From Myxococcota bacterium (lineage in GTDB: Bacteria; Myxococcota_A; UBA9160; JAFDDA01), in assembly GCA_965228475.1 (NCBI GenBank), contig OZ245817.1, positions 3,392,001 to 3,456,000 of the forward strand: a stretch of 64,000 nt of DNA, read 5' to 3'. Below are positions 12,790 to 35,023 of this stretch, in pieces. Both the position numbers and the translations under genes were made by a program. The first letter of the stretch is position 1; every line of letters begins with the position of its first letter. The notes under the pieces were generated by a model. That model was given only the letters and a program-made list of their open reading frames with translations. It was not told the origin of the DNA and did no database searches.

Positions 12790-12792
12790 CGG

Positions 12793-15834: not shown

Positions 15835-15849
15835 TGAGTCGTCCCGTGC

Positions 15850-16680: not shown

Positions 16681-17031
16681 CCGGAGCGCCGGAATCCTTT
16701 CTAGAGCAACACTCGCGGCCGGATTCTTGGCGGGCGGGAGCGTCTCGGGTCGGTCCAAGGAGGCGCGGGACAGGGTGGCCGTCGACGTCCGGAGGAATCC
16801 GAACCTCGACGCTTCCCCGATAGCGCCGGCGGCGCATTAAGTAGGATGTTCGCCGCATGGCGTCAAGCGCGAGAAGGCGCAAATCCGACCATTTCCGGCG
16901 CGTTGCGGCGGAATCGACCGGTGCGGAGACGAACGCGGGTTGGCGTCGTCGGCTGTACGGAATGAGATGAAACGAACACCAATTTGGTTCCCTTTTCTTC
17001 GGCGATGACGCCGTGCGGCACCAAGGGAAGC

Positions 17032-21512: not shown

Positions 21513-22208
21513 CTAGCGCACGAAACGGTAGCCGTGGCCGCGCACGGAGACGATGTGCTTCGGGCGGGAGGGGTCGCGCTCGAGATAGCGGCGCAGGCGC
21601 ACGATGAAGCTGTCGACGACGCGCGTCCGCGTGTCGGGCCGGAGGCCCCAGACCTCCTCGAGCAGATCGCCGCGCGGCACCGCCTCGCCCTCGCGCTCCA
21701 CGAGGACGCGCAGGAGCGCCGCCTCCTTGGTCGTCAGCTGGATCCGTTCGTCCCCGGCCTCGATCTCGAATCGGTCGAAGTGGATCTTGGCCGTGCCCAC
21801 GTCGATGCTCGGAAGCGCGCCGTCGCGCTGGGCCCCGTCCCAGCGCCGGCGGCGCAGGACGCTGCGCACGCGCGCGAGGAGCTCCTCCAGGCGGAACGGC
21901 TTGAAGAGGTAGTCGTCGGCGCCGTCTTCGATGCCGCGCACGACGTCCTCGGGGTCGTCCTTCGCCGTCAGGATCAGCACGGGAGTGAAGTTCCCCGCGG
22001 CACGCATCCGCTTCACGACCTCGAAGCCCGAGAGCTCCGGCAACATGAGATCGAGCACCACGAGGTCGTAGGCAGCCTCCTGGCTCACGCGCTCGATCGC
22101 GGAGCGCCCGTCGCCGACGACGTCCGTCTCGTAGCCATCGGCTTCGAGGTTGAACTTCAGACCTTCCGCGATGTGACTTTCGTCTTCGACGACGAGGATC
22201 TTCGCCAC
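21513..22208 (-). CDS. OmpR-family response regulator
   Basis: ILVVEDE, LDLMLP, LTAK, GADDYLFKPF, winged-helix SVRGHGY. Confidence 0.92.
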   Translation of the reverse strand: MAKILVVEDESHIAEGLKFNLEADGYETDVVGDGRSAIERVSQEAAYDLVVLDLMLPELSGFEVVKRMRAAGNFTPVLILTAKDDPEDVVRGIEDGADDYLFKPFRLEELLARVRSVLRRRRWDGAQRDGALPSIDVGTAKIHFDRFEIEAGDERIQLTTKEAALLRVLVEREGEAVPRGDLLEEVWGLRPDTRTRVVDSFIVRLRRYLERDPSRPKHIVSVRGHGYRFVR

Positions 22209-22216
22209 CCGGTCTC

Positions 22217-23137
22217 CTAGGCCGCCGCGCGTAGCGTGACGACGAAACGGCTCCCCCGGCCCGCGCCCTCGCTCTGGGCCTCGACGCGACCGCCGTGACG
22301 GCGCACGAGGTCGCGCACGATGAACAGGCCGAGGCCGAGGCCCGACGCCGTGCGCTGCACGTCGCGGCCGGCCCGGTAGAAGCGCTGGAAGATCTTGCGG
22401 AGCTCGCGCTGCGGGATGCCGATGCCCTGATCCGCGATCTGCACGCGCACCCGGCGCTCCCCGGCCTCGCTGATGCCGACCCGGACGTCGACGGGCGGGT
22501 CCGAATACTTGACGGCGTTCTCGAGCAGGTTCCGGAAGACGAGGCCGAGCTCGCCCTCGTCGCCGCGCACGAGGGGGTCTTCGTCGGCGTCGAGCCGGAT
22601 CGATTCCGGGTCGAGCCCGTGGCTCTCCCGGATCTGATCGATGCACTCGGCGAGCAGCTCGCGCAGGGCGACCCGCCCCTTGTTCGGCGGCGGGGCCGCT
22701 TCCTCCGCGCGGGCCGCGGCAAGCACGTGGGCCACCGTGCGATCGAGGCGCTCGACGTCCTCGTCCATCATCCCGAGGAAGGACGCGCGACGCTCGGCGT
22801 CCGGGTCGCGGCGGCGCAGGGTGTCGACGGCGAGCCGGAGCGAAGCGATCGGCGTCTTCATCTCGTGGGTCACGGCGTCGAGGAAGGCCTGCTGCCGCTG
22901 GTTGTGCCGCATCTCGCGGATCAACCAGGCGCACAGCAGGACGAGGCCGAGGATCACGAGCCCGAAGAAGATCGAGCCGAGGATCAGGAACCACCAGTTC
23001 GCCGGCGTGAAGCCGCGCGCGACGGAACCGAAATCCGAAACGACGAGGATCTGCCAGCCGACGGCGAGCGCGACGGCGAGCACCGTCGCCACCACGCCGA
23101 TGGCGAGGCGAAACACCATCGAACGCCGGCTCCACAT
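22217..23137 (-). CDS. Sensor histidine kinase (two TM helices, minimal periplasmic loop)
   Basis: H-box THEMKTP, N-box NLLENAVKYS, DQGIGI, FQRFYR, GLGLGL. Confidence 0.92.
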   Translation of the reverse strand: MWSRRSMVFRLAIGVVATVLAVALAVGWQILVVSDFGSVARGFTPANWWFLILGSIFFGLVILGLVLLCAWLIREMRHNQRQQAFLDAVTHEMKTPIASLRLAVDTLRRRDPDAERRASFLGMMDEDVERLDRTVAHVLAAARAEEAAPPPNKGRVALRELLAECIDQIRESHGLDPESIRLDADEDPLVRGDEGELGLVFRNLLENAVKYSDPPVDVRVGISEAGERRVRVQIADQGIGIPQRELRKIFQRFYRAGRDVQRTASGLGLGLFIVRDLVRRHGGRVEAQSEGAGRGSRFVVTLRAAA

Positions 23138-23177
23138 GCCGGGAGGGTACGATAGAATCGGCGCTCGGGAGAAACCT

Positions 23178-24653
23178 TTGCCCCAGCCGCCGCGCCTCCG
23201 CGCCCTTGCCGCCGCCCCCTTCCTGGCGATCCTCTGCGCCTCCTCCTTCGCCGCGCTTCCCGCCGCGGCCGAGCCTCCGCCCGAAGGCCGCTGCCCCTCG
23301 ATCGCGCCGGCCGGCGCCGGCGGAGCGACCACGGATGCCATCGCCATCCCGATGCGCGAGGGCATGACCCTCACGCTCAAGGACATCTACTCCCTGCACC
23401 ACCTCCTGCCGCGCGAGGTCTGGCGCAACCGCAAGATCTTCTTCCACGAGGGCATGAAGCTCGAGGTGGGGCCCTGCCACCGCCGCTACTCGCTCCCGGT
23501 CTGGTACCACGACGCCACCGAGCGTCACGCCGACGCCGTCTCCCTCGACGACGACGGCAACCTCACGGGCTACCGCGCCGGCGTGCCCTTCCCTCCCGAG
23601 AAGATCCACCCCGAGGATCCGGCCGCCGGCGCGCGCTGGGCCTGGAACCACGTCTACCGCTGGCAGGGCGCCGGCCCGCGCGGGCGTTTCCGTCTGACCG
23701 ACATGCCGAGCCGCATCGGCAGCGTCGAGGTCTACGAGGGGAGCTTCTTCCAGGTCCAGACGGCCCACCGCGCGGACCTCGGCGCGACGAACTACGAGGC
23801 CCCGGAGGCCGAGGGCTACGCCTTCGTCTCCGGCGGCCGCTTCGAGAAGCCCTTCGACGCCCGGCACCTGGCCTGGCGCCAGATGCGCCCCCTCGATTTC
23901 GAGCAGCGCTTCAAGGAGCCGGACACCACCTTCGTCTACGTCCCCTCCATGCGGAAGTCGCGCCGGGGCGCGACGGCCTGGGTCGACGGCCTCTACCTGC
24001 CGACCTACCGCGTCGGCCACATCCAGGCCGGCGGCGGCGTCCCCTTCGGCTCGACGGAGTTCGGCCCGGCGGGCGCGATCAACCCGACGGCGGGCATCTC
24101 CGCAGCCTCGAGCGAGCACATCCGCCGCGGCTTCGTCGGCGTGGCCCTGCGCGCGAACGCCTACAAGTGGCACCTGGTGACGAAGCGCGAGGTCCTCGCA
24201 CCGATCAACACGGTGAACCCCGTGTACCCCGAGAGCGAAGAGCGCAACTTCGGCGAATCCGGCCTCTCCCTCGGCAGCGACCGCTGGGACGTCCGCTACG
24301 CCGTGGTGATCGAAGGCGTCTCCCGCACCGGCAGCAACCCCGTCGGCCGGCTGACCCTCTGGATCGACCATCAGACCGGGCAGCTCCTCTACTACATCTC
24401 GCGCAAGAAGAACCGGCGCATCATCGACATCGGCGTCCTGGCCCACCGCTACAGCGGGGACATCGTCGAGTACCCGGAGTGGCCGGGTGGCGGTCAGGCG
24501 CGCGTGTTCGACCCGGTGGCCGCGTCCTTCTACGGAGAGATCGAGGGCGGCACCGGCTGGCGCCGCGAATCCTGGGACATCCTCTCCATCCCGCCCGACG
24601 CCGCCGAGATGAAGAAGATCCTCTCGACGAGCGACCTGCTGAAGGGGCGCTAG
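23178..24653 (+). CDS. DUF1329-like secreted/periplasmic protein
   Basis: Signal peptide (..AALPAAA), AGVPFP, GARWAWN, DTTFVYVPSMRKSRR, WIDHQT; TTG start after GGAG. Confidence 0.7.
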   Translation: MPQPPRLRALAAAPFLAILCASSFAALPAAAEPPPEGRCPSIAPAGAGGATTDAIAIPMREGMTLTLKDIYSLHHLLPREVWRNRKIFFHEGMKLEVGPCHRRYSLPVWYHDATERHADAVSLDDDGNLTGYRAGVPFPPEKIHPEDPAAGARWAWNHVYRWQGAGPRGRFRLTDMPSRIGSVEVYEGSFFQVQTAHRADLGATNYEAPEAEGYAFVSGGRFEKPFDARHLAWRQMRPLDFEQRFKEPDTTFVYVPSMRKSRRGATAWVDGLYLPTYRVGHIQAGGGVPFGSTEFGPAGAINPTAGISAASSEHIRRGFVGVALRANAYKWHLVTKREVLAPINTVNPVYPESEERNFGESGLSLGSDRWDVRYAVVIEGVSRTGSNPVGRLTLWIDHQTGQLLYYISRKKNRRIIDIGVLAHRYSGDIVEYPEWPGGGQARVFDPVAASFYGEIEGGTGWRRESWDILSIPPDAAEMKKILSTSDLLKGR

Positions 24654-24665
24654 GCCGAGCGCCCG

Positions 24666-27600
24666 CTAGAACGTGTACCGGAAGGTCACGAACAGCTCCT
24701 CGCGATCGGAAACCGGCGTCAGGCCGTTGAAGCGCGTCCGTGTTTCATAGTCGTTGCCCGCGGTGGACGAGAGTGCAAGGGGCACCCGTGCCTGCCTCGC
24801 CGAGCGCGGCTCGCCTCGGAAGGTCGTCAGGCCCGTCGAGACCGAGAAGTTCTCCGTCATGCGGTAGGTGTAGTTCACGATCAGCCCGCTCGAGTTCGAC
24901 TCGATCTCGTGGATCAGGGTGAAGCTCGAGATCAGTCGATCCTGCCAGAACCCCGTGAAGGCGGTCAGCGTCATCAGGGCCGAGAAGGGGCCGTCCGGGG
25001 TGAGCGCCTTGTCCGTGTAGCCATCGATCCAGCGCACGAAGAACTGGGCGTTGAAGAAGATCGTCCGGTTGGCATTGAGGAAGTTGATGAAGGTCGGGCG
25101 GTCGACGGACACGGTGAGGTTCAGCGTGTCGTTGCGCGACCAGCCGTCTTTTTCATGGGTGTTCGAGTAGGGCTCGTCCTCGAACCAGACGAACTCGATG
25201 CCCCAGTTGGTCTTGGTGCGGTCCTCCGCGAAGTCCATCGAGAAGCCGAGTACGTTGCGGCGCTTGTAGAGGAGCCTCGCCTCTCCTCCCCCGTGCCACA
25301 GGAAGTCGCGCCGGCCGAAGCGGCCGTTGCCACCCGCCGAGATGTCCGGGCGTCGTGCCCCGGCCACCGAAAAGAGCGCGGTGATCAGCGTGCAGCTCAG
25401 GAGACCCTGTTCACTGACTGCGCTGCAGTTTTCGTTGTCCGGCAGGAGCCCGGAAAGCGTCGAGAGCAGGATCATGAGGTTGTAGGAGGTCGTCTGGACT
25501 TCGCTCTGGAAGAACTGGCCGGTGCGCGGGTCGATCTGGTTCGCGGCGCCGTTGCACTGGGCGCCGAGGCCCGGGCTCTGCTGGTTGAGCGCAGCCGCGA
25601 CGGCAGGAAGGTTCACGCTCAGATCGGTCACGCAGCCGTCGATGAGGGGGTTGTAGCGGAAGCCAACGGGGTCGGTGAAGAAGGAGAACGGGCTTCGCGC
25701 CCCGGGCAACTGCACCTGCCCGACCCCTGCGATGAAGCGAGTACCGATCGGGCCGTCGAACTGCGGGAAGGCCGAGAGGATGACCGAAGCCTCGGCGGAG
25801 TAGAGGTCGACCCCACCGAACTCGAGAACGCCGTCGCCGTCGAGGTCGTAGCCCGCTCCGCAGATGTCCGTCCCGGCGGGCGCGTTCGGGTGGAAGAACC
25901 GGCCCGTGCCGAACAGGGCTTCCTGCTGATCCGTGAGGAGGCTCCCGCACGTATCCGCGAACCCGAGATCGGCGCCATCGCTCAAGGGATTCTGATGGAG
26001 GGCGACGGCGGGCACGAAGGTCGCGCCGAGCTGCGCCGCGAGCAGTCCTCCGATGCCTGTCCAGGCCACGTCGCCACCGAGCGCGAGCCCGAGCACCGAG
26101 CGGATGGCGATGTTCACGGGCACGGTGAGCGAATCGACCGTGTTGAACAGGTCGAGCGCGCAGTCGCTCTGGAGGACCGGGGCACCTCCGCCGGCCAGCG
26201 TCACGCCCGCGTTGGCCGCGAGCCCGCTGCTGGCGGAGCACAGTACGTCGAAGAATTGCCGATTGCCCGAGGTATGAGTGCCTGCGTTGGCCGGCGACAG
26301 GCAGGTCTCCTCGAACCCGGTGATGCAGGTCCCGAGCCCCGTCGCGCCGGCGATGCGCGGGCGCCCGGTGACCGGATCCGCGTTCCGGTCGTATTCGTTG
26401 AAGATGTCGATGACCGGGACGTCCGGGAAGCCGTAGAAGTTCGTGATGGCGAAGCTGAAGCGGCCGTAGCGGAACTCGAGCCGCAGGCCGGCCTCGAGGC
26501 CGCGCGTGCTGTTCCACGGGTCCTGGGGCCGCTCCTCGCCCGCGAGCCCGACGCCGGTCAGGCCGTGGCCGTAGGCTCCGAACTTCTTCAGGCACACCAG
26601 CCAGACCGTGTAGGGCTCGCCGCAGATGCCGAGGTCCGTCGGCTCGAAGTGGTCGAGGTTCGTTGCCAACTCGAGGCGCACGTCCTCGAAGGGGCCGACG
26701 TTCCAGAAGGACCAGATCGCGCGCAGGGACCACAGCGCAATCCGCGAAGACTCGAGACTCGAGAGGGTCGCCAGGGCGATGTCCTGGGGGTTGAACTGGT
26801 CCTGGGCCCGGAAGAGCTCCGTCTTGCCCCAGACCGTCGTCTGGCGCCCGACGCGCAGGAAGAGCTGGCCGTCGAGGAACTCGATGTCGAGGTAGGCCTC
26901 GCGAAGCTCCTTGACCTGCTGCTGGCTCGCACCCCGGTTCCACTGGAGTTCGTTCTCGCTGAAGTTCACGTCGAGATCGTCGAGGTCGTCGATGATCTCG
27001 CGGAGGCGAGGCGAAGGCGAGAACAGCGAGCCCTGGGCCGGTCGCAGCGGGAGGGGGATCGGGATCGTGGCCGGGCCGGCGAGCGTCGTCACCGCGGTCG
27101 GCACGTTTCGCAGCGCCCCGTTGGCCTTCACGTCCTCGGGTGTCCACGGCCCCAACGGAGCGGTGAGCGGCCCCACGGACCCCTGGATGTGTTTGACGGC
27201 GAACTTGAAGTCCGAGACCGGTCCGAGGGTACGCGCCAGAGCCAGCTCGGTCGCGGCACCGCCGATGCCGAGAATCGTGTCGAGCGGCGGGATCTCCGCG
27301 ACCCCGACCAACCGCGCCCCCGACCCGTGCACCCGTCGCGATGGGCTCGACGGGTTGCGGAACCGTCCGGTGAAACCGCTCGACCGGCCGTTCGTGAACT
27401 GGGACGGCGCCCGGTTCGCCTCGTTGCCCCAGAGGCGCTGTCCGGTGGCGATGTGGCACATGGACTGCCAGACGCAGTCGTAGCGCCCCTCGACGCGGAT
27501 GAAGCCCTGGAGGAGCGAGATCGGGCCCCAGCCGTCGGGCAGGAGGTCGAACTCCGCCTCGAGGCTCAGCGTGTGGGCCCATTGGTGCGGGTTGAAGTTG

Positions 27601-27803
27601 GTGAGCTCGAAGCTGTCCGCGATGCCGCGGAACTCCATCTGGTAGGCGCCGTGCAGCTCGACGAAGCCGTTACCGAACTCGATCGCGCGGCCGGGAGAGG
27701 AAACCAGGATCGCTGCCGCCATGGACAGCGTGAGCGAAATCAGAAAGCCGGGCTTGCGACTCTTCTTCGACGTCGAGCGCACCACACCATCCGGACGGGT
27801 CAT
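24666..27803 (-). CDS. Large DUF1302-like outer-membrane beta-barrel protein, paralog 3 (1045 aa)
   Basis: Signal peptide; ELREAYLD, RVGRQTTVWGKTE, DQFNPQD; C-terminal FVTFRYTF. Confidence 0.7.
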   Translation of the reverse strand: MTRPDGVVRSTSKKSRKPGFLISLTLSMAAAILVSSPGRAIEFGNGFVELHGAYQMEFRGIADSFELTNFNPHQWAHTLSLEAEFDLLPDGWGPISLLQGFIRVEGRYDCVWQSMCHIATGQRLWGNEANRAPSQFTNGRSSGFTGRFRNPSSPSRRVHGSGARLVGVAEIPPLDTILGIGGAATELALARTLGPVSDFKFAVKHIQGSVGPLTAPLGPWTPEDVKANGALRNVPTAVTTLAGPATIPIPLPLRPAQGSLFSPSPRLREIIDDLDDLDVNFSENELQWNRGASQQQVKELREAYLDIEFLDGQLFLRVGRQTTVWGKTELFRAQDQFNPQDIALATLSSLESSRIALWSLRAIWSFWNVGPFEDVRLELATNLDHFEPTDLGICGEPYTVWLVCLKKFGAYGHGLTGVGLAGEERPQDPWNSTRGLEAGLRLEFRYGRFSFAITNFYGFPDVPVIDIFNEYDRNADPVTGRPRIAGATGLGTCITGFEETCLSPANAGTHTSGNRQFFDVLCSASSGLAANAGVTLAGGGAPVLQSDCALDLFNTVDSLTVPVNIAIRSVLGLALGGDVAWTGIGGLLAAQLGATFVPAVALHQNPLSDGADLGFADTCGSLLTDQQEALFGTGRFFHPNAPAGTDICGAGYDLDGDGVLEFGGVDLYSAEASVILSAFPQFDGPIGTRFIAGVGQVQLPGARSPFSFFTDPVGFRYNPLIDGCVTDLSVNLPAVAAALNQQSPGLGAQCNGAANQIDPRTGQFFQSEVQTTSYNLMILLSTLSGLLPDNENCSAVSEQGLLSCTLITALFSVAGARRPDISAGGNGRFGRRDFLWHGGGEARLLYKRRNVLGFSMDFAEDRTKTNWGIEFVWFEDEPYSNTHEKDGWSRNDTLNLTVSVDRPTFINFLNANRTIFFNAQFFVRWIDGYTDKALTPDGPFSALMTLTAFTGFWQDRLISSFTLIHEIESNSSGLIVNYTYRMTENFSVSTGLTTFRGEPRSARQARVPLALSSTAGNDYETRTRFNGLTPVSDREELFVTFRYTF

Positions 27804-27979
27804 TTCACCCTCCTCCTGCTCGACCCCTCGCATGTGCTGCGGAATCCGGCCCGAACCGCCGGCAGCCACCGCACCTTCCCCCAGCGATCGGGCTCCGCGC
27901 ATTATGAACCGCGAAAGCGGAGGGCCTCAAGGATTTTCGCCCTCGAGGCCCTCGGAAGAATCGCGCACGCTCCTCGGAG

Positions 27980-30900
27980 CTAGAACGTCTTGCGCAGGGT
28001 GAAGAAGAGTTCGTCGCGTTCGGTCAACGGCGAGACACCCTGGTAGTTGCTGCGCTGCGTCGCGTCGCAGCACGTGAAGCGCGTGAGCGGGCTCCGCTCG
28101 AGGACGCGCGAGCGGCGCGGCGAGCCGTAGAAGGTCGAGAGGCCGACCGTCGCCGAGAAGGATTCCGAGAAGCGGTAGGAGACCGTGAAGATCTGCCCGC
28201 CCGAGTTCGACTCGACCTCGTGGATGAGCGTGAGGAAGGCGTTCAGGCGGTCCTGCCAGAACCCCGTGAAGGCCGTGAAGGTCGCCAGCGCCGCCACCGG
28301 GCCGTCGACCTCGAAGGTATCCCGGCGCTCGTAGTTCGGGATGTAGCGGAGGAAGAGCTGCGCGTTGAAGAAGATCGTGCGGTTCGCGTTCAGGAAGTTG
28401 ATGAACGTCGGGCGATCGACCGAGATCGTGAGGTTCAGCGTGTCTTCCCGCGAGAAGCCGCGGTCGGCCCGCTGGTTGATGTAGGGCGCGTCCTCGATCC
28501 AGGTGAAGTCCATGCCCCAGGCGGTCTTGCTCCAATCCTCGGTGAAGTCCACGGAGACGCCCAGCACGTTCCGTCGCTCGTAGAAGAGCTGGATCTCCGA
28601 GCCGGCGAGCCAGGTCATGTCGCGCCGGCCATAGCGGCCGTTGCCCCCCGCCCGGAACTCCGGCCGTTGGACGGCGCTCGTCTCGAACAGGCCGTTCAGG
28701 AACTCGCAACGCGTCGGGGCTGCAACGCTGCAGCCCGAGTCCGGATCGATCAGGCCGGAGATGCCGGCGAGCAGGCGAACGAGGTTCTCCGAGACGATCG
28801 CCATTTCGGTCGGGAAGAGCGTCCGGATCTGCTCGACCGTGTAGCTCGGTCCGGCGTTGTCGAAGTTGATGCGATTTCCCGGGTTTGCGCCGTCCGGAAT
28901 GGGAACCAGGTACCCGACGCCGGCGCCGTCGGCCGGATCGTCGTCACACTGGTCGGCATTCGCAGCACTGATGCCGCGGCTGATCAGATCCGCCCGGACC
29001 TGAGCCCCATAGGCACCGAGGTTCGTCAACCCGACGACGCAGCCGTCGACCGTCGGATCCCAGCGGTACCCGACCGGATCAGAGAAATAGGTGAAGACGC
29101 TGCGCGCTCCGGGAAGCTGGATGGTTCCCACGCCGGGGATGAAGCGCGTGGCGATCGCACCGTTGAGCGGGATGCCGCCGTGCTCCGATTGTGGGAAGGC
29201 TTGGTAGAGGACACTCGCCTCCAGGTTGAACAGGTCGATCCCATCGACGTTGCAGTCGGTCTGATAGAACGGGCCGCATCCGAGCAGCGCCTGCTGCTCC
29301 GGGCTGAGGAAGCCGGTGAAGGAGGTCGCGCCGGTCTGGACCGCGTCGTTTCGGCCCGGGTGCAACGGAATCGTGGCCGTCGAGGGGTCACCCCCGCCGA
29401 AGGTCTTCCCGAGGATGTTGCAGAAGACGAGACAGGCGGCGCTGCCGTTGAAGAAGTCTCCGTCCGCCAGGGTCTGGCCGAGCACGGCCGGCACGTTCCC
29501 GAGGCCCGGGATCGGGTCCGGGTTGTTGAAGATCGAGATGACGCACGACGTGATGGGAAGCAGGTTCCCGAGGTTGCCCGGGATCACGAGATTCTGGGTG
29601 GCCGAGCACGTCGTATCGTAGAGCTGCCGATTGCCGGAGTGATACGCGAGCGCGTTGCCGACGTTCAGGCAGGCCGGTTCGTTGCCAGTTACGCAGGCCC
29701 CGGTGGCGCCCGAGATCCGCGGACGCCCGGTGTTCGGGTCGACGTTGCGGTCGTATTCGTGGAAGTAGTCAGGCGTCGGGAAGTCGTCGTAGCCGTAGAA
29801 ATCGGTGATGGCGATGGAGAAGCGGCCGATGCGGAACTCGACGCGGGCGCCGAACTCGAAGCCGGTGCCGCTCTCGTAGAAGGCCGGCGGCCGCAGCTCG
29901 CCGGCGATGCCGAGGCCCGAGAAGCCGTGGGCGAACAGGCCGTACTGCTTCTGGCACACGAGGAACACGGCGTAGGGCTCGCCGCAGTCGCCGATGTCCG
30001 CCGGCTCGAAGTTGTCGAGGTTCACCGCCAGCTCGAGGCGGAGATCCTGGAACGGCCCGACGTCGTAGAACGAATAGACCGCCCGGGCCTGCCAGAGCGC
30101 GATCAGGGACTCCTCGAAGCTCGGGAGATTCGAGACCGCCACGTCCTGGGGATTCAGCTGGTCCGGCGTTCCGCTTCGGAAGAGCTCCGTCTTGCCCCAA
30201 CGCGTGATCTGCTTCCCGAGCCGGAGCTGAAGGCGCCCTTCGGCCATCACGATGTCGAGATAGGCCTCCTTGAGTTCCTTCGTCTGCTGCTGGCTCGCCC
30301 CCCGGTTCCAGGCGAGCTCGTTCTCGGTGAAGTTGACGTCGGGGTTGTCGTAGTCGTCGATGAAGCGGGTCAAGCCGGCCGAGGGAATGAAGAGCGAGGG
30401 GGTCGCGGGGCGGAAGGGCAGCGCCTTCTGGTCGGGCACGGGAACGCCAGCCAGAGAGCCCGTCGAGTCGATGTGGGTCCCGGGGTCGATCGGGCCGAGC
30501 ACCGAGACCAGCGGATGGAGCGAGCCCTTCACGTGCTTGCTCGTGAACTTCGCCTCGAGCAGCTCGTCACCGAAGGTCCGCTGGATGTCTTCCGGCGAAC
30601 CGAGCGTGAGCAGCGTGCTGAAGGGGTCGAAGTCCGCGAAGGAGGCGAGGCGGCTCGAAGGCTGCTCGCGCACGATCGGGTTGAGCGGGTTCGGGAGAAC
30701 GCCCGTCACGCCCCGCGTGCGGCCGTTCGAAATGTTCTCCGGCGCCCGCCTCGCGTCGTCGCCGAAGTAGTTCCACTGGCGCGCCATGTGGCAGGCGTGC
30801 TCGAACACGCAGTCGTACTGGACGTCGACGCGCGCGAAGGCCTCCACGATGTCGAAGGGCCCGATGCCGTCGGGGAAGAGCTCCGCCTCGAACTCGAGGG

Positions 30901-31093
30901 AGAGCTTCGTGGCCATCTTGCTCAGGAACCAGTTGTGGTCCCGGACCCGATAGCCGTCCCCGATCACGCGGATCTCTTCCGAGAGCGATCCGTGGAGCTG
31001 GAGCCGGCCGTTGAAGGCCTCGAGCGCCGGTGCGACCCCGGGCGTGGCGGCCAGCAGCGCTGCCGCCACGAGCAACGGTCGAACGAGACGCAT
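27980..31093 (-). CDS. Large DUF1302-like outer-membrane beta-barrel protein, paralog 2 (1037 aa)
   Basis: Signal peptide; ELKEAYLD, RLGKQITRWGKTE; C-terminal FFTLRKTF. Confidence 0.7.
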   Translation of the reverse strand: MRLVRPLLVAAALLAATPGVAPALEAFNGRLQLHGSLSEEIRVIGDGYRVRDHNWFLSKMATKLSLEFEAELFPDGIGPFDIVEAFARVDVQYDCVFEHACHMARQWNYFGDDARRAPENISNGRTRGVTGVLPNPLNPIVREQPSSRLASFADFDPFSTLLTLGSPEDIQRTFGDELLEAKFTSKHVKGSLHPLVSVLGPIDPGTHIDSTGSLAGVPVPDQKALPFRPATPSLFIPSAGLTRFIDDYDNPDVNFTENELAWNRGASQQQTKELKEAYLDIVMAEGRLQLRLGKQITRWGKTELFRSGTPDQLNPQDVAVSNLPSFEESLIALWQARAVYSFYDVGPFQDLRLELAVNLDNFEPADIGDCGEPYAVFLVCQKQYGLFAHGFSGLGIAGELRPPAFYESGTGFEFGARVEFRIGRFSIAITDFYGYDDFPTPDYFHEYDRNVDPNTGRPRISGATGACVTGNEPACLNVGNALAYHSGNRQLYDTTCSATQNLVIPGNLGNLLPITSCVISIFNNPDPIPGLGNVPAVLGQTLADGDFFNGSAACLVFCNILGKTFGGGDPSTATIPLHPGRNDAVQTGATSFTGFLSPEQQALLGCGPFYQTDCNVDGIDLFNLEASVLYQAFPQSEHGGIPLNGAIATRFIPGVGTIQLPGARSVFTYFSDPVGYRWDPTVDGCVVGLTNLGAYGAQVRADLISRGISAANADQCDDDPADGAGVGYLVPIPDGANPGNRINFDNAGPSYTVEQIRTLFPTEMAIVSENLVRLLAGISGLIDPDSGCSVAAPTRCEFLNGLFETSAVQRPEFRAGGNGRYGRRDMTWLAGSEIQLFYERRNVLGVSVDFTEDWSKTAWGMDFTWIEDAPYINQRADRGFSREDTLNLTISVDRPTFINFLNANRTIFFNAQLFLRYIPNYERRDTFEVDGPVAALATFTAFTGFWQDRLNAFLTLIHEVESNSGGQIFTVSYRFSESFSATVGLSTFYGSPRRSRVLERSPLTRFTCCDATQRSNYQGVSPLTERDELFFTLRKTF

Positions 31094-31184
31094 GCGCATC
31101 CTCCGCGCCGTGGTCAGGAGCTCCGGAACCCGGTCCAGCCTCGGTCGGCGCGATGGCTGGGCGGAGCAGCGATCGATCGAACTC

Positions 31185-34100
31185 CTAGAACGTCTTGCGC
31201 AGTCGGACGAAGGCTTCGTCACGGTCGCGGACCACGCCGAGCCCGCGCTCGCTGAAGTCCCGGTAGGCGCCGCTTCCCGTGTTGTTGCCCAGGCTGATCG
31301 GATTGATGGGCATGCGGGTCGACTGCCACTTCCCGTAGAAGAGCGCCATGCCGAACTCCACCGAGAAGCTCTCGCTGAAGCGGTAGCTGATGCTCGGCAG
31401 GATGCCGCCGGACTCCGACATGAAGTCGTAGATCACGGTGAGGCTCGGGTTGAGGCGGTCCTGATAGAAGCCCGAGAAGACCGTCAGCGTGGCCAGCACG
31501 TTGAACGGGCCGTTGCGCGGCATCGACTGCTCGAAGCCCTCGGTGTACTGGAAGAACCACTGGGAGTTGATGAAGAACGTCCGGTTCTGGTTCAGGAAGT
31601 TGATGAAGGTCGGCCGGTCGACCGAGACCGTCATGTTGAAGAAGTCCACTTCCTTCACGCCGTCGAGAGCGTCGTTGTCCGCGACGATGACGTTGTGGAA
31701 CCAGGTCGACTCCACCGACCAGTTGGTCTTCGTGATGTCCTCGGCGAAGTCCATCGAGAAGCCGAGCACGTTGCGCTTCTGGTGCTTCAGCCGGTTCGAC
31801 GTGCCGCCGTGCCACACGAAGTCCGAGCGGCCGAAGCGGCTGTTGCCGCCGGCCAGCGCCGAGTTCCGGCGCTGCCCGATGATCGAGAGGAACGCCGATA
31901 CGTTCGAGCAGAACTGCGGCGCGGCCCAGGAGCAGCGGTCGGCCGCCAGCGGCGCGCGCGGGTTGAACTCGGTGACGTCGAACTCGTCGGGGTTCAGGAC
32001 GGCCGTGCCCGGCGGGTCCACGACGTCGTTGTTCGCGCCGATCAGCGAGAACACGACGAGCAGCATCTGGAAGTTCCAGGAGAAGGCGTCCATGTAGCTG
32101 TACCAGCCTTCGCCCGTGAAGGGATGGCCGTTACAGAACCCGACGTCGCCCGCGATCGGGCAGTTGAAGATCGTCGCGGCCGGGAGGCCGCCGCGGTTCT
32201 CCGTGTGGGTCGGGATCTGGCGGTCCCCGTCGACCGCGAGCTGCCAGCCCGCCTCGACCGCACCCTCGGCGGCGCTGCCGGCCTTGCAGCCCGGCAGGAC
32301 CACGAGGCCCGAACCCTGGACGAAGCGCTGACACCAGAACCGGCCGTTGGCCGCGGCGTAGGGGATCGTTCCGGGCTGACCGGCACCGAGCGTCGTCGAC
32401 GGCGCGTTCGGCTGCGTGATCCACGCGGAGCTGATCGCGCTGGCCTCGGCGTTCAGGAGGTCGAGACCGTCGGCCTGGCAGGCCGTCCCGTAGAACGGAC
32501 CGCAGCCGATCAGGGCCTGCTGCTGGGGCGTCAGGTTGTCCAGGCCGTTGCTGTTGCCGACGGCGACGTCGAGGTCGACGATCGGGATGTTCTGGGCCGT
32601 GATGTTCGGGCAGTAGCCGAACGGGTCCGGGCCCGGGCAGGTCGTGCCGGGGAGCAGCAGCGCGAGAACCGCGGAGCCGGTGCCCAGGCCGATCTGGTCA
32701 CCGCCGAGCGCCAGGCTGATCGCCTGGGCCGGGGTGATCGTGGCGAGCAGGCGGTTCTGCGAGTTGAAGATGCTCTGGGCGCACACCGTCGGGTCGAGGT
32801 CCGCCGCGAAGGCGATGCTCGTGCTGCAGATGAAGGCGAACAGCTGCTGGTTGACCGAGTGCTTGGTCAGCGCTTCGGAGGCCAGCAGGCAGTCGGCCTC
32901 GGTGCCCGTCGTGCACTGGCCGCGCTGGTTGCGCTCCCGCGGGCGGCCCGTGAAGGGATCCACGTTGCGCTCGTAGCGGAAGAGCTGGTCGGCGAAGGGG
33001 AAGTCGTCGTAGCCGTAGAAGTTGGTCAGGGCGAAGGAGAAGGCGCCGTAGCGGAACTCCATGCGCGCGCCGAACTCGAGGCCCTTGATGTCCTCCCAGG
33101 GCGCCGGCGGCCGGGTCAAGCCCGCGAGGCCGAAGCCACTGATGCCGTGGGCGAACAGGCCTGCCCGGATGTTGCAGGCGGGGTTCGGCGTATAGGGCTC
33201 GCCGCACTGGCCGAGGTCCGCGCCCTGGTACGTGTCGATGTTCGCGGCGACCTCGAGGCGCACGTCCTCGAGAGGCCCGACCTGCCAGAGCGACCAGACG
33301 GCGCGCGCCGCCCAGAGCGAGATGCGCGACTCCTCGAGGGAGGGCAGCGTCGAGAGCGCGAGGTCCTGCGGGTTGAACTGGTCCGTGGTGCGGAAGAGCT
33401 CGGTCTTCCCCATCACGATGCTCTGCTTGCCGAGGCGCAGCCACAGCGAGCTGTCGAACAGCTCGATGTCGACGTAGGCCTCCTTCAGGAAGTGGGTCTG
33501 CTGCTGGCTCGCGCCGCGGTTCCACTTGAGCTCCGACTCCCGGAAGTTCTGGTCGAAGTTGTCGAAGTTGTCGTCCGCGATCTGCTGGGCGAGCGCGAAG
33601 TTCGGGTAGTAGATGCCCTGGGCGAACTGCTGCTCGGCGCCGTTCGGGCCGACGATCGGCGCGGGGCGGTAGGGCAGCGCGGCAGTGCCGAAGCACTTCG
33701 AGGAGTTCCACTGGTCCCGGGCCGGATCGACCGGCGCCGCCGGGCCGCCGCCGTCGGCGCGCTGGGGCGTATTGAACTCGGAGCACGGCGCGACCTGCCC
33801 GCGCTGGAAGCCGACCTCGTCGTCGAGGAAGTTGCCGCGCGAGATCAGCTGCGAGCTCGGGTTCGGGCCGCCCGGCAGGAGGTCGCCGTAGGTGACCTGC
33901 GGGAGGATCGGGTTCAGGTCGCCGCTGCGGAAGGGGTTCGGCTTGTCGCGCAGGGCGCCGGTGCCGTCCACGAAGTTCTTCGGCAGCCACGGGCCCAGGG
34001 TCTGGGTGCCGTTGCCGTTGACCGAGCCGCGCACCTTGCGGAGTCCGAACTTGTAGTCGTCGAAGCGCGAGAGCACGAACGGGGCCGGGTCGTCGAAGTC

Positions 34101-34721
34101 ACCGAGGATCGAGTTCGCGCCTTCCTGGCCGAACAGCGTGTCGATGCCGGGGACGTTGAAGATGCTCGCAGGCTTGCGGCGGCCGCCCGGGAAGAGGCCC
34201 GGCTGCTCGAGCCCGGCGGCCAGGTTGGCGGGGGTCGTCGGCGCCGGGATGCCGAACTTCGTGGGGAGGATGTCGCGCGAGATGCCATGCCGCTTGCGGA
34301 CGTGGCCTGTGAACTGGCTTCCGGTGAAGCCGCTGCGGCGCCCGTCGCTGTAGCGCTTGGGCAGCTTCTTCGCGCGGTCCCCGAAGGCGTTCGCCGACGG
34401 GAAGACGTAACAGGCGCGGTCGTAGACGCAGTCGAAGCGGGCTTCCACGCGGGCGTACGCGGAGATGATGTCGAAGGGGCCCCAGCCATCGGGGGCGATG
34501 TCGAGTTCCATTTCCAGGTTGAGCACCTGGTACCACTGGGTGAGATCGAAGTCGTCGGTCCCGTCGAAGTTGCGCGAGATCACGCGCGTCTGGTTCTCGT
34601 AGAACCCGTGGATCTGAAGCGGCCCGGCTTCGATGGCCTGCACGCTCGGCGCTGCAAGCAGCACACAAACTGCGACCCACGCCGACGCAAGGAAACGGCT
34701 CGAAATCTGCACCCCGCCCAT
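31185..34721 (-). CDS. Large DUF1302-like outer-membrane beta-barrel protein, paralog 1 (1178 aa)
   Basis: Signal peptide ..PSVQA; LKEAYVD, RLGKQ..GKTE, DQFNPQD; C-terminal FVRLRKTF; GGAGG RBS. Confidence 0.7.
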   Translation of the reverse strand: MGGVQISSRFLASAWVAVCVLLAAPSVQAIEAGPLQIHGFYENQTRVISRNFDGTDDFDLTQWYQVLNLEMELDIAPDGWGPFDIISAYARVEARFDCVYDRACYVFPSANAFGDRAKKLPKRYSDGRRSGFTGSQFTGHVRKRHGISRDILPTKFGIPAPTTPANLAAGLEQPGLFPGGRRKPASIFNVPGIDTLFGQEGANSILGDFDDPAPFVLSRFDDYKFGLRKVRGSVNGNGTQTLGPWLPKNFVDGTGALRDKPNPFRSGDLNPILPQVTYGDLLPGGPNPSSQLISRGNFLDDEVGFQRGQVAPCSEFNTPQRADGGGPAAPVDPARDQWNSSKCFGTAALPYRPAPIVGPNGAEQQFAQGIYYPNFALAQQIADDNFDNFDQNFRESELKWNRGASQQQTHFLKEAYVDIELFDSSLWLRLGKQSIVMGKTELFRTTDQFNPQDLALSTLPSLEESRISLWAARAVWSLWQVGPLEDVRLEVAANIDTYQGADLGQCGEPYTPNPACNIRAGLFAHGISGFGLAGLTRPPAPWEDIKGLEFGARMEFRYGAFSFALTNFYGYDDFPFADQLFRYERNVDPFTGRPRERNQRGQCTTGTEADCLLASEALTKHSVNQQLFAFICSTSIAFAADLDPTVCAQSIFNSQNRLLATITPAQAISLALGGDQIGLGTGSAVLALLLPGTTCPGPDPFGYCPNITAQNIPIVDLDVAVGNSNGLDNLTPQQQALIGCGPFYGTACQADGLDLLNAEASAISSAWITQPNAPSTTLGAGQPGTIPYAAANGRFWCQRFVQGSGLVVLPGCKAGSAAEGAVEAGWQLAVDGDRQIPTHTENRGGLPAATIFNCPIAGDVGFCNGHPFTGEGWYSYMDAFSWNFQMLLVVFSLIGANNDVVDPPGTAVLNPDEFDVTEFNPRAPLAADRCSWAAPQFCSNVSAFLSIIGQRRNSALAGGNSRFGRSDFVWHGGTSNRLKHQKRNVLGFSMDFAEDITKTNWSVESTWFHNVIVADNDALDGVKEVDFFNMTVSVDRPTFINFLNQNRTFFINSQWFFQYTEGFEQSMPRNGPFNVLATLTVFSGFYQDRLNPSLTVIYDFMSESGGILPSISYRFSESFSVEFGMALFYGKWQSTRMPINPISLGNNTGSGAYRDFSERGLGVVRDRDEAFVRLRKTF

Positions 34722-34788
34722 GAAACCCTCCAGCAGACGGCCCGGGTTCGACCCGGCGCCCGTCGCGCGCCCCAGTAACGACACCGCC

Positions 34789-34820
34789 CTTATATGATGA
34801 AACGTTGCGTGATTACAACG
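34789..34820 (-). promoter_or_regulatory. Possible sigma70-type promoter of the DUF1302 cluster, with inverted repeat over -35
   Basis: Minus strand TTGTAA-18nt-TATAAG in an AT-rich patch; CGTTG..CAACG dyad at 34803-34820. Confidence 0.4.
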
Positions 34821-35023
34821 GATTCTTGCGAGCGGACGATGTGGTGTAGGGGGGGTTCGGGCCCAGCGGTCCGAAACGCGGCGAACGACGCAGCGCGCGG
34901 CGCACTGCGTCATTCGCGGATCGGCGTCGCGGAATCCGGGCGAAGGCCCCGGATCCGGCTCGACGGACGACGCTGGAGTTCAGGTTTGGCGGGGGCTTGG
35001 CGCCGTCGGGGGCGCGCTTTCGG

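What the first reader, a model, noticed from the sequence alone, without database searches (positions are those of the whole stretch)
21513..34820. Triplicated giant cysteine-paired outer-membrane barrels with a DUF1329 partner and a divergent two-component system
Seen: three co-oriented paralogs (1178, 1037, 1045 aa) with signal peptides and BAM-type C-termini (..RxTF). They share near-identical blocks (WNRGASQQQ, GKTELFR, CGEPY, VDRPTFINFLN) around a ~350-450-aa variable middle. They converge on a secreted DUF1329-like gene, which sits back-to-back with a histidine kinase/OmpR pair. Established: DUF1302/DUF1329 genes usually co-occur with RND and YCF48-like genes in clusters linked to hydrophobic substrates, and the DUF1302 proteins I know are much shorter. 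No RND or YCF48 gene is present here. Inference: an uncharacterised envelope uptake or sensing system in which one periplasmic carrier serves several barrels with diversified extracellular caps, possibly feeding the nearby acyl-CoA dehydrogenases.
Basis: partly seen in the sequence, partly recalled or inferred. Interest (0 to 1): 0.78.

Follow-up and report, generated by a model that had tools for sequence, protein, structure and literature searches.

The report
Giant capped DUF1302 outer-membrane barrels
Three oversized outer-membrane barrel genes, a LolA-like periplasmic partner and a small two-component sensor form a conserved gene cluster in uncultured Myxococcota; it is an expanded version of a poorly understood system that moves greasy molecules across the cell envelope.

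Summary
Three co-oriented paralogs (1178, 1037 and 1045 aa; 39-44% identical) pass Pfam's DUF1302 cut-off. They converge on a DUF1329 gene that lies back-to-back with a histidine kinase/OmpR-type regulator pair.

An AlphaFold2 model of paralog C (pLDDT 89.6) shows about 20 barrel strands. Two large insertions fall in loops that I infer to face outward, and they hold nearly all the paired cysteines. The DUF1329 model matches solved LolA-superfamily and DUF1329 structures.

In 64 related Myxococcota MAG loci:
- the kinase/regulator pair is adjacent in 48 of 56 evaluable loci;
- a barrel is adjacent in 38 of 52;
- barrel number is one or two and never three, and barrel size runs from about 990 to 1900 aa.

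A tree shows an old split between two barrel types, then a later B/C duplication.

No RND or YCF48-like gene lies in the window or in the loci I sampled. The link to the acyl-CoA dehydrogenases is no stronger than general collinearity.

Best reading: an Ame/PP_0765-0766-type outer-membrane route for hydrophobic molecules with lineage-specific disulfide-stapled caps. Transport direction is unresolved. This is a new variant of a known, uncharacterised kind.

The parts
21513..22208 (-). OmpR-type response regulator (about 231 aa, GTG start). It lies 8 nt downstream of the kinase stop.
   Evidence: Pfam Response_reg 101.7 bits and Trans_reg_C 80.8 bits. All NCBIfam equivalog scores are below cut-off; the best is MtrA at 195.8 against 300. 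Start read.
22217..23137 (-). Histidine kinase, 306 aa. It has two hydrophobic helices separated by about 14 residues, followed directly by HisKA and HATPase_c. There is no periplasmic or cytoplasmic sensor domain.
   Evidence: Pfam HisKA and HATPase_c only. A Kyte-Doolittle scan gives two hydrophobic stretches in residues 5-40 and 45-77. NCBIfam best hits are PnpS at 164.9 against 400 and PhoR at 163.1 against 334.2, so it is not assignable to a named system. An alternative start at 23119 is possible.
23178..24653 (+). DUF1329 / LolA-superfamily periplasmic protein. It is 491 aa from TTG 23178 (GGGAGA 5 nt upstream) or 505 aa from ATG 23136. It has a signal peptide and no lipobox.
   Evidence: Pfam DUF1329 92.2 bits. 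AF2 model pLDDT 87.9, pTM 0.86. Foldseek hits: LolA3 9tp6 with target TM 0.77, 3bk5 with 0.74, and the DUF1329 family protein 4z48 with 0.71. C114 is invariant and C53 is at least 90% conserved in 120 homologs.
24666..27803 (-). Barrel C, 1045 aa. It is a proximal-type DUF1302-family outer-membrane barrel with two large cysteine-paired inserts (residues 110-299 and 471-839).
   Evidence: Pfam DUF1302 49.8 bits. AF2 pLDDT 89.6, pTM 0.90. Foldseek matches only generic outer-membrane barrels. Orthologs are 63-70% identical.
27920..27953 (.). Hairpin with 13-nt arms, 92% complementary, in the 176-nt gap between barrels B and C. It overlaps a promoter-like site (TTGAGG-18-CATAAT, 27930-27901, minus strand).
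   Evidence: These are consensus matches only; function was not tested.
27980..31093 (-). Barrel B, 1037 aa. It is proximal-type and forms the sister clade of C.
   Evidence: Pfam DUF1302 56 bits. Orthologs are 60-66% identical; one of them, P0018, shares an 11,060-nt longest-contig size with a C ortholog, P0007, so both may lie on one contig. Tree.
31185..34721 (-). Barrel A, 1178 aa. It is distal-type (next to the topoisomerase gene), and its first insert is longer than in B and C, with A-only stretches over about 130 alignment columns.
   Evidence: Pfam DUF1302 29.7 bits. Alignment. In the tree it groups with the single and distal barrels of other loci.
34722..35023 (-). 302-nt region upstream of barrel A. 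It holds an 18-nt-arm hairpin (34881-34917), possibly the topoisomerase terminator, and an AT-richer TTGTAA-18-TATAAG stretch.
   Evidence: Hairpin. The promoter-like words were read by eye and were not returned by the consensus scan.

Best explanation
The cluster encodes the outer-membrane end of a DUF1302/DUF1329-type (AmeAB / PP_0765-PP_0766-like) route for hydrophobic or amphiphilic molecules.

Shown:
- Each of the three proteins is a DUF1302-family beta-barrel of about 20 strands.
- The neighbouring gene encodes a LolA-fold protein of the DUF1329 family with a signal peptide.
- The gene set barrel(s) + DUF1329 + kinase/regulator is conserved in an uncultured Myxococcota lineage.

Inferred:
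- The two big inserts (190 and 369 aa in C, up to roughly 1000 extra residues in relatives) sit in extracellular loops 2 and 6. They form a disulfide-stapled cap over the barrel.
- The invariant blocks WNRGASQQQ, GKTELFR and CGEPY lie in loops 2-4 that line or plug the lumen.
- The invariant VDRPTFINFLN block lies at a periplasmic turn and is a candidate docking site for DUF1329.
- A greasy cargo passes between the cap/barrel and the hydrophobic cavity of DUF1329, which shuttles it across the periplasm.
- The different caps of A, B and C give different cargo or surface specificities to one shared shuttle.
- The kinase has no sensor domain. It reads a membrane-borne signal and, through the OmpR-type regulator, controls the divergent DUF1329 gene and probably the barrels.

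Direction: I lean to uptake, about 60:40 over export, because large variable surface caps are typical of capture devices rather than exit ducts.
For: Family assignment:
- Pfam DUF1302 above cut-off for all three barrels, and DUF1329 at 92 bits.
- Of the 120 best listed homologs of barrel C, 119 carry PF06980 precomputed. Where a name is given, they are called hypothetical or DUF1302 family protein from Myxococcota or Deltaproteobacteria MAGs.

Folds:
- The AF2 model of C has pLDDT 89.6 and pTM 0.90.
- It has 20 long strands. All long connections (residues 110-299, 322-356, 383-418, 471-839, 997-1034) follow odd-numbered strands. Every connection after an even-numbered strand is 2-13 residues.
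- Foldseek matches porins, FadL, AlgE and OccAB3 over about 210-320 columns. AlgE and an A. baumannii Occ-type carboxylate channel are also the hits a 2026 paper reports for canonical DUF1302 (passages of PMC13499233).
- The DUF1329 model matches LolA3, 3bk5 and the DUF1329 structure 4z48.

Disulfides:
- 115 of 118 homologs have an even mature cysteine count.
- Pairs 394/404 and 522/548 are present in 118 of 118, and pair 793/804 in 117 of 118.
- Of the window paralogs' 52 mature cysteines, 50 lie in the inserts or in loop 4 (residues 394/404 of C); the two adjacent cysteines near the C-terminus of B fall in the C-terminal barrel part.

Conservation of the set in 64 orthologous loci:
- Divergent kinase-regulator next to DUF1329 in 48 of 56 evaluable loci. 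Three more carry it elsewhere in the locus.
- A convergent barrel within 600 nt in 38 of 52 evaluable loci. Ten more have a barrel elsewhere in the locus.

Variable caps: the inserts hold 721 of the 769 alignment columns that are absent from C, and have the lowest identity.

Published genetics on relatives (passages read):
- An ameABCD deletion lowers monoterpene tolerance and an ameB transposon mutant grows poorly on monoterpenes (PMC6394551).
- PP_0765 and PP_0766 (DUF1302/DUF1329) have similar fitness scores, and the authors propose that they supply the missing step in the catabolism of Tween 20 and butyl stearate (10.1101/2020.07.04.188060); PMC10866462 calls them essential for the metabolism of Tween 20.
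- DUF1302, DUF1329, a BNR protein and an RND protein are cofit in several bacteria (10.1101/072470).
- AlphaFold-Multimer predicts a DUF1302-DUF1329 complex with ipTM 0.84, and likewise (PMC10866462).
Against: - No cargo, binding or direction was tested, and the organism is uncultured.
- The Pfam match covers mainly one block. When C was scanned in four pieces, only residues 299-365 scored, against profile positions 145-216 of 541. The rest of the barrel is assigned by fold and context.
- Canonical partners (an HAE3 RND pump and a COG4447/BNR protein) are absent from the window and from the parts of related loci I scanned. The inner-membrane end is therefore unknown; they may be encoded elsewhere, as in P. 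putida and P. stutzeri.
- Four of 52 evaluable loci keep DUF1329 without any barrel within 10 kb (L011, L031, L066, L070). L011, L031 and L070 also keep the kinase/regulator pair upstream; L066 starts inside DUF1329, so its upstream side cannot be seen.
- Five of 56 lack the kinase/regulator pair.
- The outward topology of the inserts is read from the strand parity of a DSSP string. I had no coordinates to check barrel closure.
- Papers give 18 or 16 strands for DUF1302, not 20.
- No shared regulator-binding motif was found upstream of the four genes.
- The Ame data favour efflux, not uptake.
Confidence: 0.5

Rival explanations
1. Same parts, opposite direction. The system is an export or insertion route. 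DUF1329 takes a lipidic product or a toxic hydrophobe from an inner-membrane pump encoded elsewhere (HAE3 RND plus a COG4447 protein) and hands it to the barrels. The caps then gate or shield the exit.
For: - The only deletion study of a full cassette, ameABCD, shows reduced monoterpene tolerance and higher Nile Red influx (passages).
- Price et al. proposed export of a cell-wall component from cofitness with an RND exporter (passage).
- Sensor-less kinases often control envelope-stress or efflux modules. This point is recalled and comes from no call.
Against: - No RND or BNR gene lies in the window or in the sampled loci.
- Very large, variable, disulfide-rich surface domains are unusual for exit ducts (established knowledge, used here as inference).
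- The P. putida mutants fail to use external fatty esters.
Confidence: 0.3
2. The barrels are mainly anchors that display a surface domain (an enzyme such as an esterase, or an adhesin or receptor), and transport is secondary. Paralog and cap diversity would then reflect different surface activities or pressure from phages and predators.
For: - Thompson et al. hypothesised an esterase role for DUF1302/DUF1329 (abstract and passages).
- The cap has a conserved core with invariant polar residues (D666, E671, S673, R689, and H413 in loop 4). Around this core, the size varies widely, from about 990 to 1900 aa in loci and up to 2205 aa in the library.
Against: - The inserts match no Pfam family at E <= 0.01, and the insert-2 segment matches none even at E <= 1. 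The supergiant forms match nothing beyond DUF1302 at E <= 0.01.
- No usable Atlas neighbour was found.
- No stand-alone homolog was found. The only 4 short hits are all on contigs of 1.6-3.7 kb and one is labelled partial, so they look like fragments.
- The strict pairing with a LolA-fold protein argues for cargo handling.
- A catalytic triad could not be checked without coordinates.
Confidence: 0.1
3. The kinase/regulator pair is only a neighbour by inherited collinearity and does not regulate DUF1329 or the barrels.
For: - The whole block ACAD-ACAD-PAC2-(NYN)-RR-HK-DUF1329-barrel(s)-topoisomerase-phosphorylase is collinear across the clade, including plainly unrelated genes.
- No shared upstream motif was found.
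- Five of 56 loci lack the pair.
Against: - The pair stays next to DUF1329 even where barrels moved or were lost (L011, L031, L045).
- The two genes are divergent with start codons at most about 60 nt apart, a common regulator-target layout (established knowledge).
- The 15 orphan DUF1329 paralogs elsewhere in these genomes lack both the pair and a barrel.
Confidence: 0.2

Closest known systems
AmeABCD of Castellaniella defragrans (AmeA DUF1302, AmeB DUF1329, AmeC COG4447, AmeD HAE3 RND). Passages read, PMC6394551.
   Same: An outer-membrane DUF1302 protein is encoded beside a periplasmic LolA-superfamily DUF1329 protein of similar size (451 aa against about 460 aa mature here). It is linked to hydrophobic compounds.
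   Different: - AmeA is 605 aa, while the window barrels are 1037-1178 aa with two cysteine-paired inserts.
- There are three barrels here instead of one.
- No COG4447 or RND gene is adjacent.
- A two-component system is adjacent.
- The host is Myxococcota rather than Betaproteobacteria.
PP_0765/PP_0766 of Pseudomonas putida and Sama_1588-1591 of Shewanella amazonensis. Passages read.
   Same: The DUF1302/DUF1329 pair exists as its own unit. In P. putida and P. stutzeri the BNR and RND partners are encoded elsewhere, so a pair without adjacent RND has precedent.
   Different: - Those clusters are tied to a LuxR-type regulator, not an OmpR-type two-component system.
- Their barrels are of ordinary size. 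The only length I saw in a call is AmeA at 605 aa; the rest is recalled.
- Phenotypes are known there (Tween 20, butyl stearate), and none is known here.
LolA/LolB superfamily, including solved DUF1329-type structures 4z48, 3bk5, 3buu and LolA3 9tp6
   Same: The model contains the same open half-barrel fold, with target TM-scores of 0.60-0.77.
   Different: - The window protein is about twice as long as those chains (505 aa against 220-240 aa).
- No sequence match to any PDB chain at E <= 1.
- Its cargo is unknown.
AlgE, Occ/OprD channels, FadL and general porins (structural neighbours)
   Same: An outer-membrane beta-barrel with loops folded over or into the lumen. FadL is a functional analogue for the uptake of hydrophobic molecules.
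   Different: - Only about 210-320 aligned columns, with target TM-scores of 0.21-0.35 and 7-13% identity.
- None of them has a cap of several hundred residues.
Intramembrane-sensing histidine kinases (BceS/LiaS type). The definition is recalled and comes from no call.
   Same: Two transmembrane helices with a very short outside linker, and no other input domain.
   Different: - No ABC transporter or LiaF-like partner is adjacent.
- The host is a Gram-negative bacterium.
- Membership in that group was not tested phylogenetically.

Membership tests
DUF1302 (PF06980) | Score against the Pfam model above the gathering cut-off | tested here: met
   Scores are 29.7 (A), 56 (B) and 49.8 (C) bits against 23.2. 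Coverage is partial: the best stretch covers profile positions 130-218 of 541. When C was scanned in four pieces, only residues 299-365 scored.
DUF1302 (PF06980) | Outer-membrane beta-barrel fold, reported as 18 (or 16) strands | tested here: inconclusive
   The barrel fold is supported: AF2 pLDDT 89.6, and Foldseek finds porin, FadL, AlgE and Occ hits. The strand count read from the DSSP string is about 20. No coordinates were available to count strands geometrically.
DUF1302 (PF06980) | Signal peptide and C-terminal aromatic beta-signal | tested here: met
   Hydrophobic N-terminal segments and the C-termini ...RKTF...RKTF and ...RYTF. This is read from sequence; no predictor was available.
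DUF1302 (PF06980) | Ordinary size of about 600 aa (AmeA is 605 aa) | tested here: not met
   The window proteins are 1037-1178 aa. Relatives run from 989 to 1902 aa in loci and up to 2205 aa in the representative library.
DUF1302 (PF06980) | Encoded next to a DUF1329 gene | tested here: met
   In the window, barrel C ends 12 nt from the DUF1329 stop. In relatives, 38 of 52 evaluable loci have an adjacent barrel and 10 more have one within the locus.
DUF1329 (PF07044) / LolA superfamily | Pfam score above cut-off and a LolA-like fold | tested here: met
   92.2 bits against 23.1. Foldseek gives E 2e-11 to 7e-10 for 9tp6, 3bk5 and 4z48, the last deposited as a DUF1329 family protein.
Four-component Ame-type cassette (DUF1302 + DUF1329 + COG4447/BNR + HAE3 RND) | RND (COG1033) and BNR/YCF48-like genes in the same cluster | tested here: not met
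   Neither domain occurs in the 52 window ORFs scanned, nor in the 70 ORFs of related loci scanned. Presence elsewhere in the genome could not be tested because only 64 kb are visible.
LuxR-linked DUF1302/DUF1329 clusters of Pseudomonas | Adjacent LuxR-type regulator | tested here: not met
   The adjacent regulators are a HisKA/HATPase_c kinase and a Response_reg/Trans_reg_C (OmpR-type) regulator.
Intramembrane-sensing histidine kinase (definition recalled) | Two transmembrane helices with a linker under about 25 residues and no further input domain | tested here: met
   Two hydrophobic stretches fall within residues 5-77, with about 14 residues between them. The H-box lies near residue 91. 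Only HisKA and HATPase_c are found in Pfam. No transmembrane-topology program was available.
PhoR/PnpS or other named two-component systems | NCBIfam equivalog score above cut-off | tested here: not met
   Best kinase hits are PnpS at 164.9 against 400 and PhoR at 163.1 against 334.2. The best regulator hit is MtrA at 195.8 against 300.

The most novel reading that the evidence does not exclude
These are a distinct class of 'capped' outer-membrane translocons. A DUF1302 barrel of about 20 strands carries a modular, disulfide-stapled extracellular domain of 550 to more than 1500 residues. This domain captures, and perhaps hydrolyses, insoluble lipidic substrates at the cell surface and feeds them to a LolA-like shuttle without a dedicated RND motor. 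A sensor-less kinase reads the arrival of cargo in the inner membrane. The A, B and C paralogs would then be a small repertoire of substrate-specific caps sharing one shuttle.
Probability: 0.15. Interest if true: 0.7.

Novelty: new variant of a known kind. Interest (0 to 1): 0.45.

Why it matters
DUF1302/DUF1329 pairs are widespread in Gram-negative bacteria. They give clear mutant phenotypes on fatty esters and terpenes, yet they have no solved barrel structure and no agreed mechanism or direction.

The Myxococcota forms described here add three useful handles:
- They show that the family tolerates, and conserves, huge outward-facing additions at two fixed loops. This marks those loops as the working surface.
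- They show the barrel/shuttle pair persisting without adjacent RND or BNR genes.
- They tie the pair to a dedicated sensor-less two-component system, which could be used to find the inducing signal.

The practical weight is limited. The hosts are uncultured and every functional step is inferred.

Tried and rejected
- NCBIfam gave no family for the barrels or DUF1329.
- PDB sequence searches gave no hit at E <= 1 for barrel C or DUF1329.
- Cap domain (residues 471-839 of C):
  - No Pfam family even at E <= 1.
  - No usable ESM Atlas neighbour.
  - A word-index search among shorter proteins found only 4 hits. All are on 1.6-3.7 kb contigs, so they are probably fragments of the same barrels.
- Pfam on 7 large or supergiant relatives (six ORFs from related loci and the protein P0015) found nothing beyond DUF1302. 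One of them, L016, gave no hit at all at E <= 0.01.
- A search for a shared 9-mer upstream of DUF1329, A, B and C found only GC-rich words and a weak CCGGATTCCG-like word upstream of A, B and C. I do not use it as evidence.
- Complex prediction of barrel with DUF1329 was not run. The mature barrel alone (about 1005 aa) exceeds the tool's 1000-residue limit, and a barrel cannot be cut into one contiguous piece without losing half its strands.
- Per-region dN/dS was not attempted. The closest orthologs are only 63-75% identical in protein, in a genome with about 90% GC3, so synonymous sites are likely saturated.
- The acyl-CoA dehydrogenase link was considered and set aside, because the conserved neighbourhood also includes unrelated housekeeping genes.
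- Genes lying between DUF1329 and the barrel in a few loci are unrelated: GlnRS, hybrid kinases, a GMC oxidoreductase and Coq4.
The context of the closest metagenomic relatives (for example P0004, P0007 and P0018) therefore stayed unchecked.
- Supplements of the bioRxiv preprints were not available.

Full report
**What is there**

The window has about 70% GC, so long spurious ORFs abound. Genes were picked by third-position GC and by domain content. From left to right, the finding covers:
- an OmpR-type response regulator (21513-22208, minus strand);
- a 306-aa histidine kinase (22217-23137, minus strand);
- a DUF1329 gene (23178 or 23136 to 24653, plus strand);
- three barrel genes on the minus strand: C (24666-27803, 1045 aa), B (27980-31093, 1037 aa) and A (31185-34721, 1178 aa).

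Spacing is as follows:
- The gaps are 91 nt (A to B), 176 nt (B to C) and 12 nt (between the convergent stops of C and DUF1329).
- 302 nt separate the upstream topoisomerase gene from A.
- The kinase and DUF1329 start codons are at most about 60 nt apart. If both ATGs are used, they overlap on opposite strands.

**Family assignment**

Pfam places all three barrels in DUF1302 (29.7, 56 and 49.8 bits; cut-off 23.2) and the partner in DUF1329 (92.2 bits). The DUF1302 match is concentrated in one block. When C was scanned in four pieces, only residues 299-365 scored. NCBIfam has no model for either protein, and neither has a sequence relative in the PDB at E <= 1. The kinase and the regulator match many named systems, but all far below the equivalog cut-offs.

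**Structure**

With a 118-sequence alignment, AlphaFold2 gave a confident model of C (pLDDT 89.6, pTM 0.90).
- The DSSP string shows 11 long strands in residues 48-470 and 9 in residues 840-1044.
- Every long connection follows an odd-numbered strand: 110-299, 322-356, 383-418, 471-839 and 997-1034.
- Every connection after an even-numbered strand is 2-13 residues long.

Outer-membrane barrels generally have both termini and their short turns in the periplasm and their long loops outside. By that rule (established knowledge; the application here is inference), both big inserts face outward. The blocks WNRGASQQQ (288-296), GKTELFR (326-332) and CGEPY (394-398) lie in loops 2-4. VDRPTFINFLN (900-910) lies at a 13-residue periplasmic turn.

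I had no coordinates, so barrel closure, strand number and disulfide geometry are unchecked. Papers give 18 or 16 strands for DUF1302. Foldseek against the PDB found only generic barrels: OmpC-type porins, FadL, AlgE and OccAB3, with 210-320 aligned columns and target TM-scores of 0.21-0.35. AlgE and an A. baumannii Occ-type carboxylate channel are also the neighbours a 2026 paper reports for canonical DUF1302.

The DUF1329 model (pLDDT 87.9) matches LolA3 (9tp6), 3bk5 and 4z48. The last is deposited as a DUF1329 family protein. Target TM-scores are 0.71-0.77.

**Cysteines**

After the signal region, A, B and C have 20, 18 and 14 cysteines. Fifty of these 52 lie in the inserts or in loop 4; the two adjacent cysteines near the C-terminus of B fall in the C-terminal barrel part. 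Across 118 family members:
- 115 have an even mature count;
- pairs 394/404 and 522/548 are present in 118 of 118;
- pair 793/804 is present in 117 of 118;
- pair 633 (or 619)/648 is present in 118 of 118;
- the optional pair 493/501 occurs together in 19, alone in 5 and is absent in 94.

This supports disulfide pairing in an oxidising compartment, either periplasm or surface.

**Variable regions**

Identity among the three paralogs is 47% in residues 300-470 and 35% in residues 840-1045. It falls to 27% in insert 1 and 21% in insert 2. Of the 769 alignment columns absent from C, 200 fall in insert 1 and 521 in insert 2. Insert 2 is not random, however. It keeps an invariant scaffold (for example Q516, D666, E671, S673, R689, R831 and D833). 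No Pfam family, Atlas neighbour or stand-alone homolog was found for it.

**Relatives**
- A word-index search found 922 proteins at E <= 0.001 among 8000 scored candidates. The 120 best are 652-1655 aa, and 119 of them carry PF06980. Where named, they are 'hypothetical protein' or 'DUF1302 family protein' from Myxococcota or Deltaproteobacteria MAGs.
- DUF1329 gave 633 hits of the same origin.
- A profile search of 1.84 billion cluster representatives gave 1868 hits at E <= 0.001, 912 at 1e-10 and 428 at 1e-30. Lengths reach 2205 aa.

**Synteny**

An alignment of DUF1329 homologs retrieved 79 loci from species-representative genomes, out of 293 confirmed relatives of which the best 80 were kept. 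Nearly all are titled Myxococcota, delta-proteobacterial or unclassified Proteobacteria MAGs; a few carry other labels (uncultured Spirochaetales, Gammaproteobacteria, Desulfobacterales).

Sixty-four loci (DUF1329 at 46-70% identity) share the block ACAD-ACAD-PAC2-(NYN)-regulator-kinase, then divergent DUF1329, then convergent barrel(s), then topoisomerase and a phosphorylase-superfamily gene.

The kinase-regulator pair:
- It lies divergently next to DUF1329 in 48 of 56 loci with enough upstream sequence.
- Three more loci (L023, L039, L045) have it displaced.
- Five lack it (L021, L043, L047, L051, L054).

The barrels:
- A convergent barrel lies within 600 nt in 38 of 52 loci with enough downstream sequence.
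- Ten more have a barrel elsewhere in the locus.
- Four have none (L011, L031, L066, L070).
- In L011 and L031, a dienoyl-CoA-reductase-like flavoprotein and a short-chain dehydrogenase occupy the barrel's place.

The other 15 loci (37-41% identity) carry an orphan DUF1329 paralog among unrelated genes, with no barrel or kinase. Two of them come from the same MAGs as full clusters. No RND or BNR domain appeared in any ORF scanned: 52 in the window and 70 in the loci.

**Copy number and history**

Among 25 loci with a complete DUF1329-to-topoisomerase/phosphorylase interval, the script counted one barrel in 20 and two in 5. L075, scored as one, shows frameshifted pieces of two. None has three.
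- Single barrels are 1158-1245 aa (5 loci) or 1562-1902 aa (11 loci).
- In two-barrel loci, the gene next to DUF1329 is 989-1012 aa and the distal one is 1040-1230 aa.

A FastTree of 49 barrels (975 kept columns) splits them with 100% local support into two types. The proximal type contains B and C. The distal type contains A, all single barrels and the supergiant forms. The B and C clades are sisters (99%). This tree has local support values only, with no bootstrap and no outgroup.

B has its own orthologs at 60-66% identity. One of them (P0018) and a C ortholog (P0007) both list an 11,060-nt longest contig, so they may lie on one contig. If so, the B/C duplication predates the window's genome. 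I could not see whether any relative has all three barrels, because the closest locus (L001) ends inside its first barrel and the metagenome contigs were closed.

**What is known**

I read passages, not whole papers.
- DUF1302, DUF1329, a BNR/ycf48-like protein and a COG1033 RND protein are cofit in several bacteria, and export of a cell-wall component was proposed (10.1101/072470).
- In P. putida the pair PP_0765/PP_0766 has similar fitness scores and is probably LuxR-controlled. The authors suggest that it supplies the missing hydrolysis step for Tween 20 and butyl stearate, an esterase role (10.1101/2020.07.04.188060). PMC10866462 calls the two proteins essential for the metabolism of Tween 20.
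- AlphaFold co-folding predicts a DUF1302-DUF1329 complex and a DUF1329-BNR-RND complex (PMC10866462, PMC13499233, ipTM 0.84).
- In Castellaniella defragrans, deletion of ameABCD lowers monoterpene tolerance (PMC6394551).
- No paper in the searched library holds both 'DUF1302' and 'myxococc...'.
- The 28 papers holding DUF1302 or DUF1329 (24 listed) and the 4 holding the Pfam accessions show no title on giant forms. About 1.7 million PubMed Central articles are not searchable, so this is not proof of absence.

**Interpretation**

The parts and their conservation support an outer-membrane barrel plus a LolA-like shuttle for hydrophobic cargo. It has been elaborated in this lineage by disulfide-stapled surface caps and by paralog multiplication, and placed under a sensor-less kinase and an OmpR-type regulator.

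The following remain inferences:
- the direction of transport;
- the cargo;
- whether one shuttle serves all barrels;
- whether the two-component system controls these genes.

I lean to uptake because of the large variable caps, but the only full-cassette knockout in the literature points to efflux. The proposed link to the nearby acyl-CoA dehydrogenases has no support beyond general collinearity.

**Verdict**

This is a new variant of a known but uncharacterised kind, of moderate interest.

Noticed in passing
window 10348-16836 (minus strand): A respiratory gene cluster that resembles alternative complex III. It holds a c-type cytochrome, an NrfD-type membrane subunit, a 1018-aa molybdopterin/4Fe-4S fusion and a multihaem cytochrome c7-like protein. 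The same genes lie upstream in some related loci, judging by ORF sizes in L011.
   Followed up: no
window 53338-54051 (minus strand) and 54001-56000: A DUF5131 gene (338 bits, a family known mostly from phages) sits beside the lowest-GC stretch of the window (0.634 against about 0.70). ORFs without Pfam matches lie next to it. This may be a small foreign insertion.
   Followed up: no
window 523-3726 (plus strand): A long ORF combines an MFS transporter region with a spermidine-synthase-like domain.
   Followed up: no
window 35024-35250 (minus strand): The topoisomerase upstream of barrel A ends in a lysine-rich KKKTAKKK-type repeat tail. This also produces terminator-like false positives on the plus strand.
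   Followed up: no
window 23135-23138 and 23178: The first ATG of the kinase (minus strand) and an ATG of DUF1329 (plus strand) overlap. A TTG at 23178 preceded by GGGAGA is a more plausible DUF1329 start. Either way, each promoter must lie inside the other gene.
   Followed up: partly
L056, L059, L060, L063-L065, L067-L069, L071, L072, L074, L076, L077, L079: A second, orphan DUF1329 paralog (37-41% identical to the window's) lies among unrelated genes (transketolase, inositol monophosphatase, luciferase-like monooxygenase). It has no barrel or kinase nearby. L069 and L068 come from the same MAGs as the full clusters L001 and L039.
   Followed up: partly
L009, L012, L014, L016, L027, L034, L041, L052, L058, L061, L062; protein P0294: These are single 'supergiant' barrels of 1562-1902 aa, and the representative library reaches 2205 aa. 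The extra length sits in insert 1 in some of them (conserved block near ORF residue 795 in L009 and L027) and later in the protein in others (near residue 450 in L061). No Pfam domain is recognised in the extra parts.
   Followed up: partly
L011 11403-14720 and L031 11454-14543: In two loci that keep the kinase/regulator pair and DUF1329, the barrel's place is taken by an Oxidored_FMN + Pyr_redox_2 flavoprotein (2,4-dienoyl-CoA-reductase-like) and a short-chain dehydrogenase.
   Followed up: no
window 34806-34815, 31124-31133, 27655-27664 region (minus-strand upstream regions of A, B, C): A CCGGATTCCG-like word recurs upstream of A and C, and with one mismatch upstream of B. It is too weak and too GC-rich to call a binding site. 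The coordinates are approximate, converted from offsets in the script output.
   Followed up: partly
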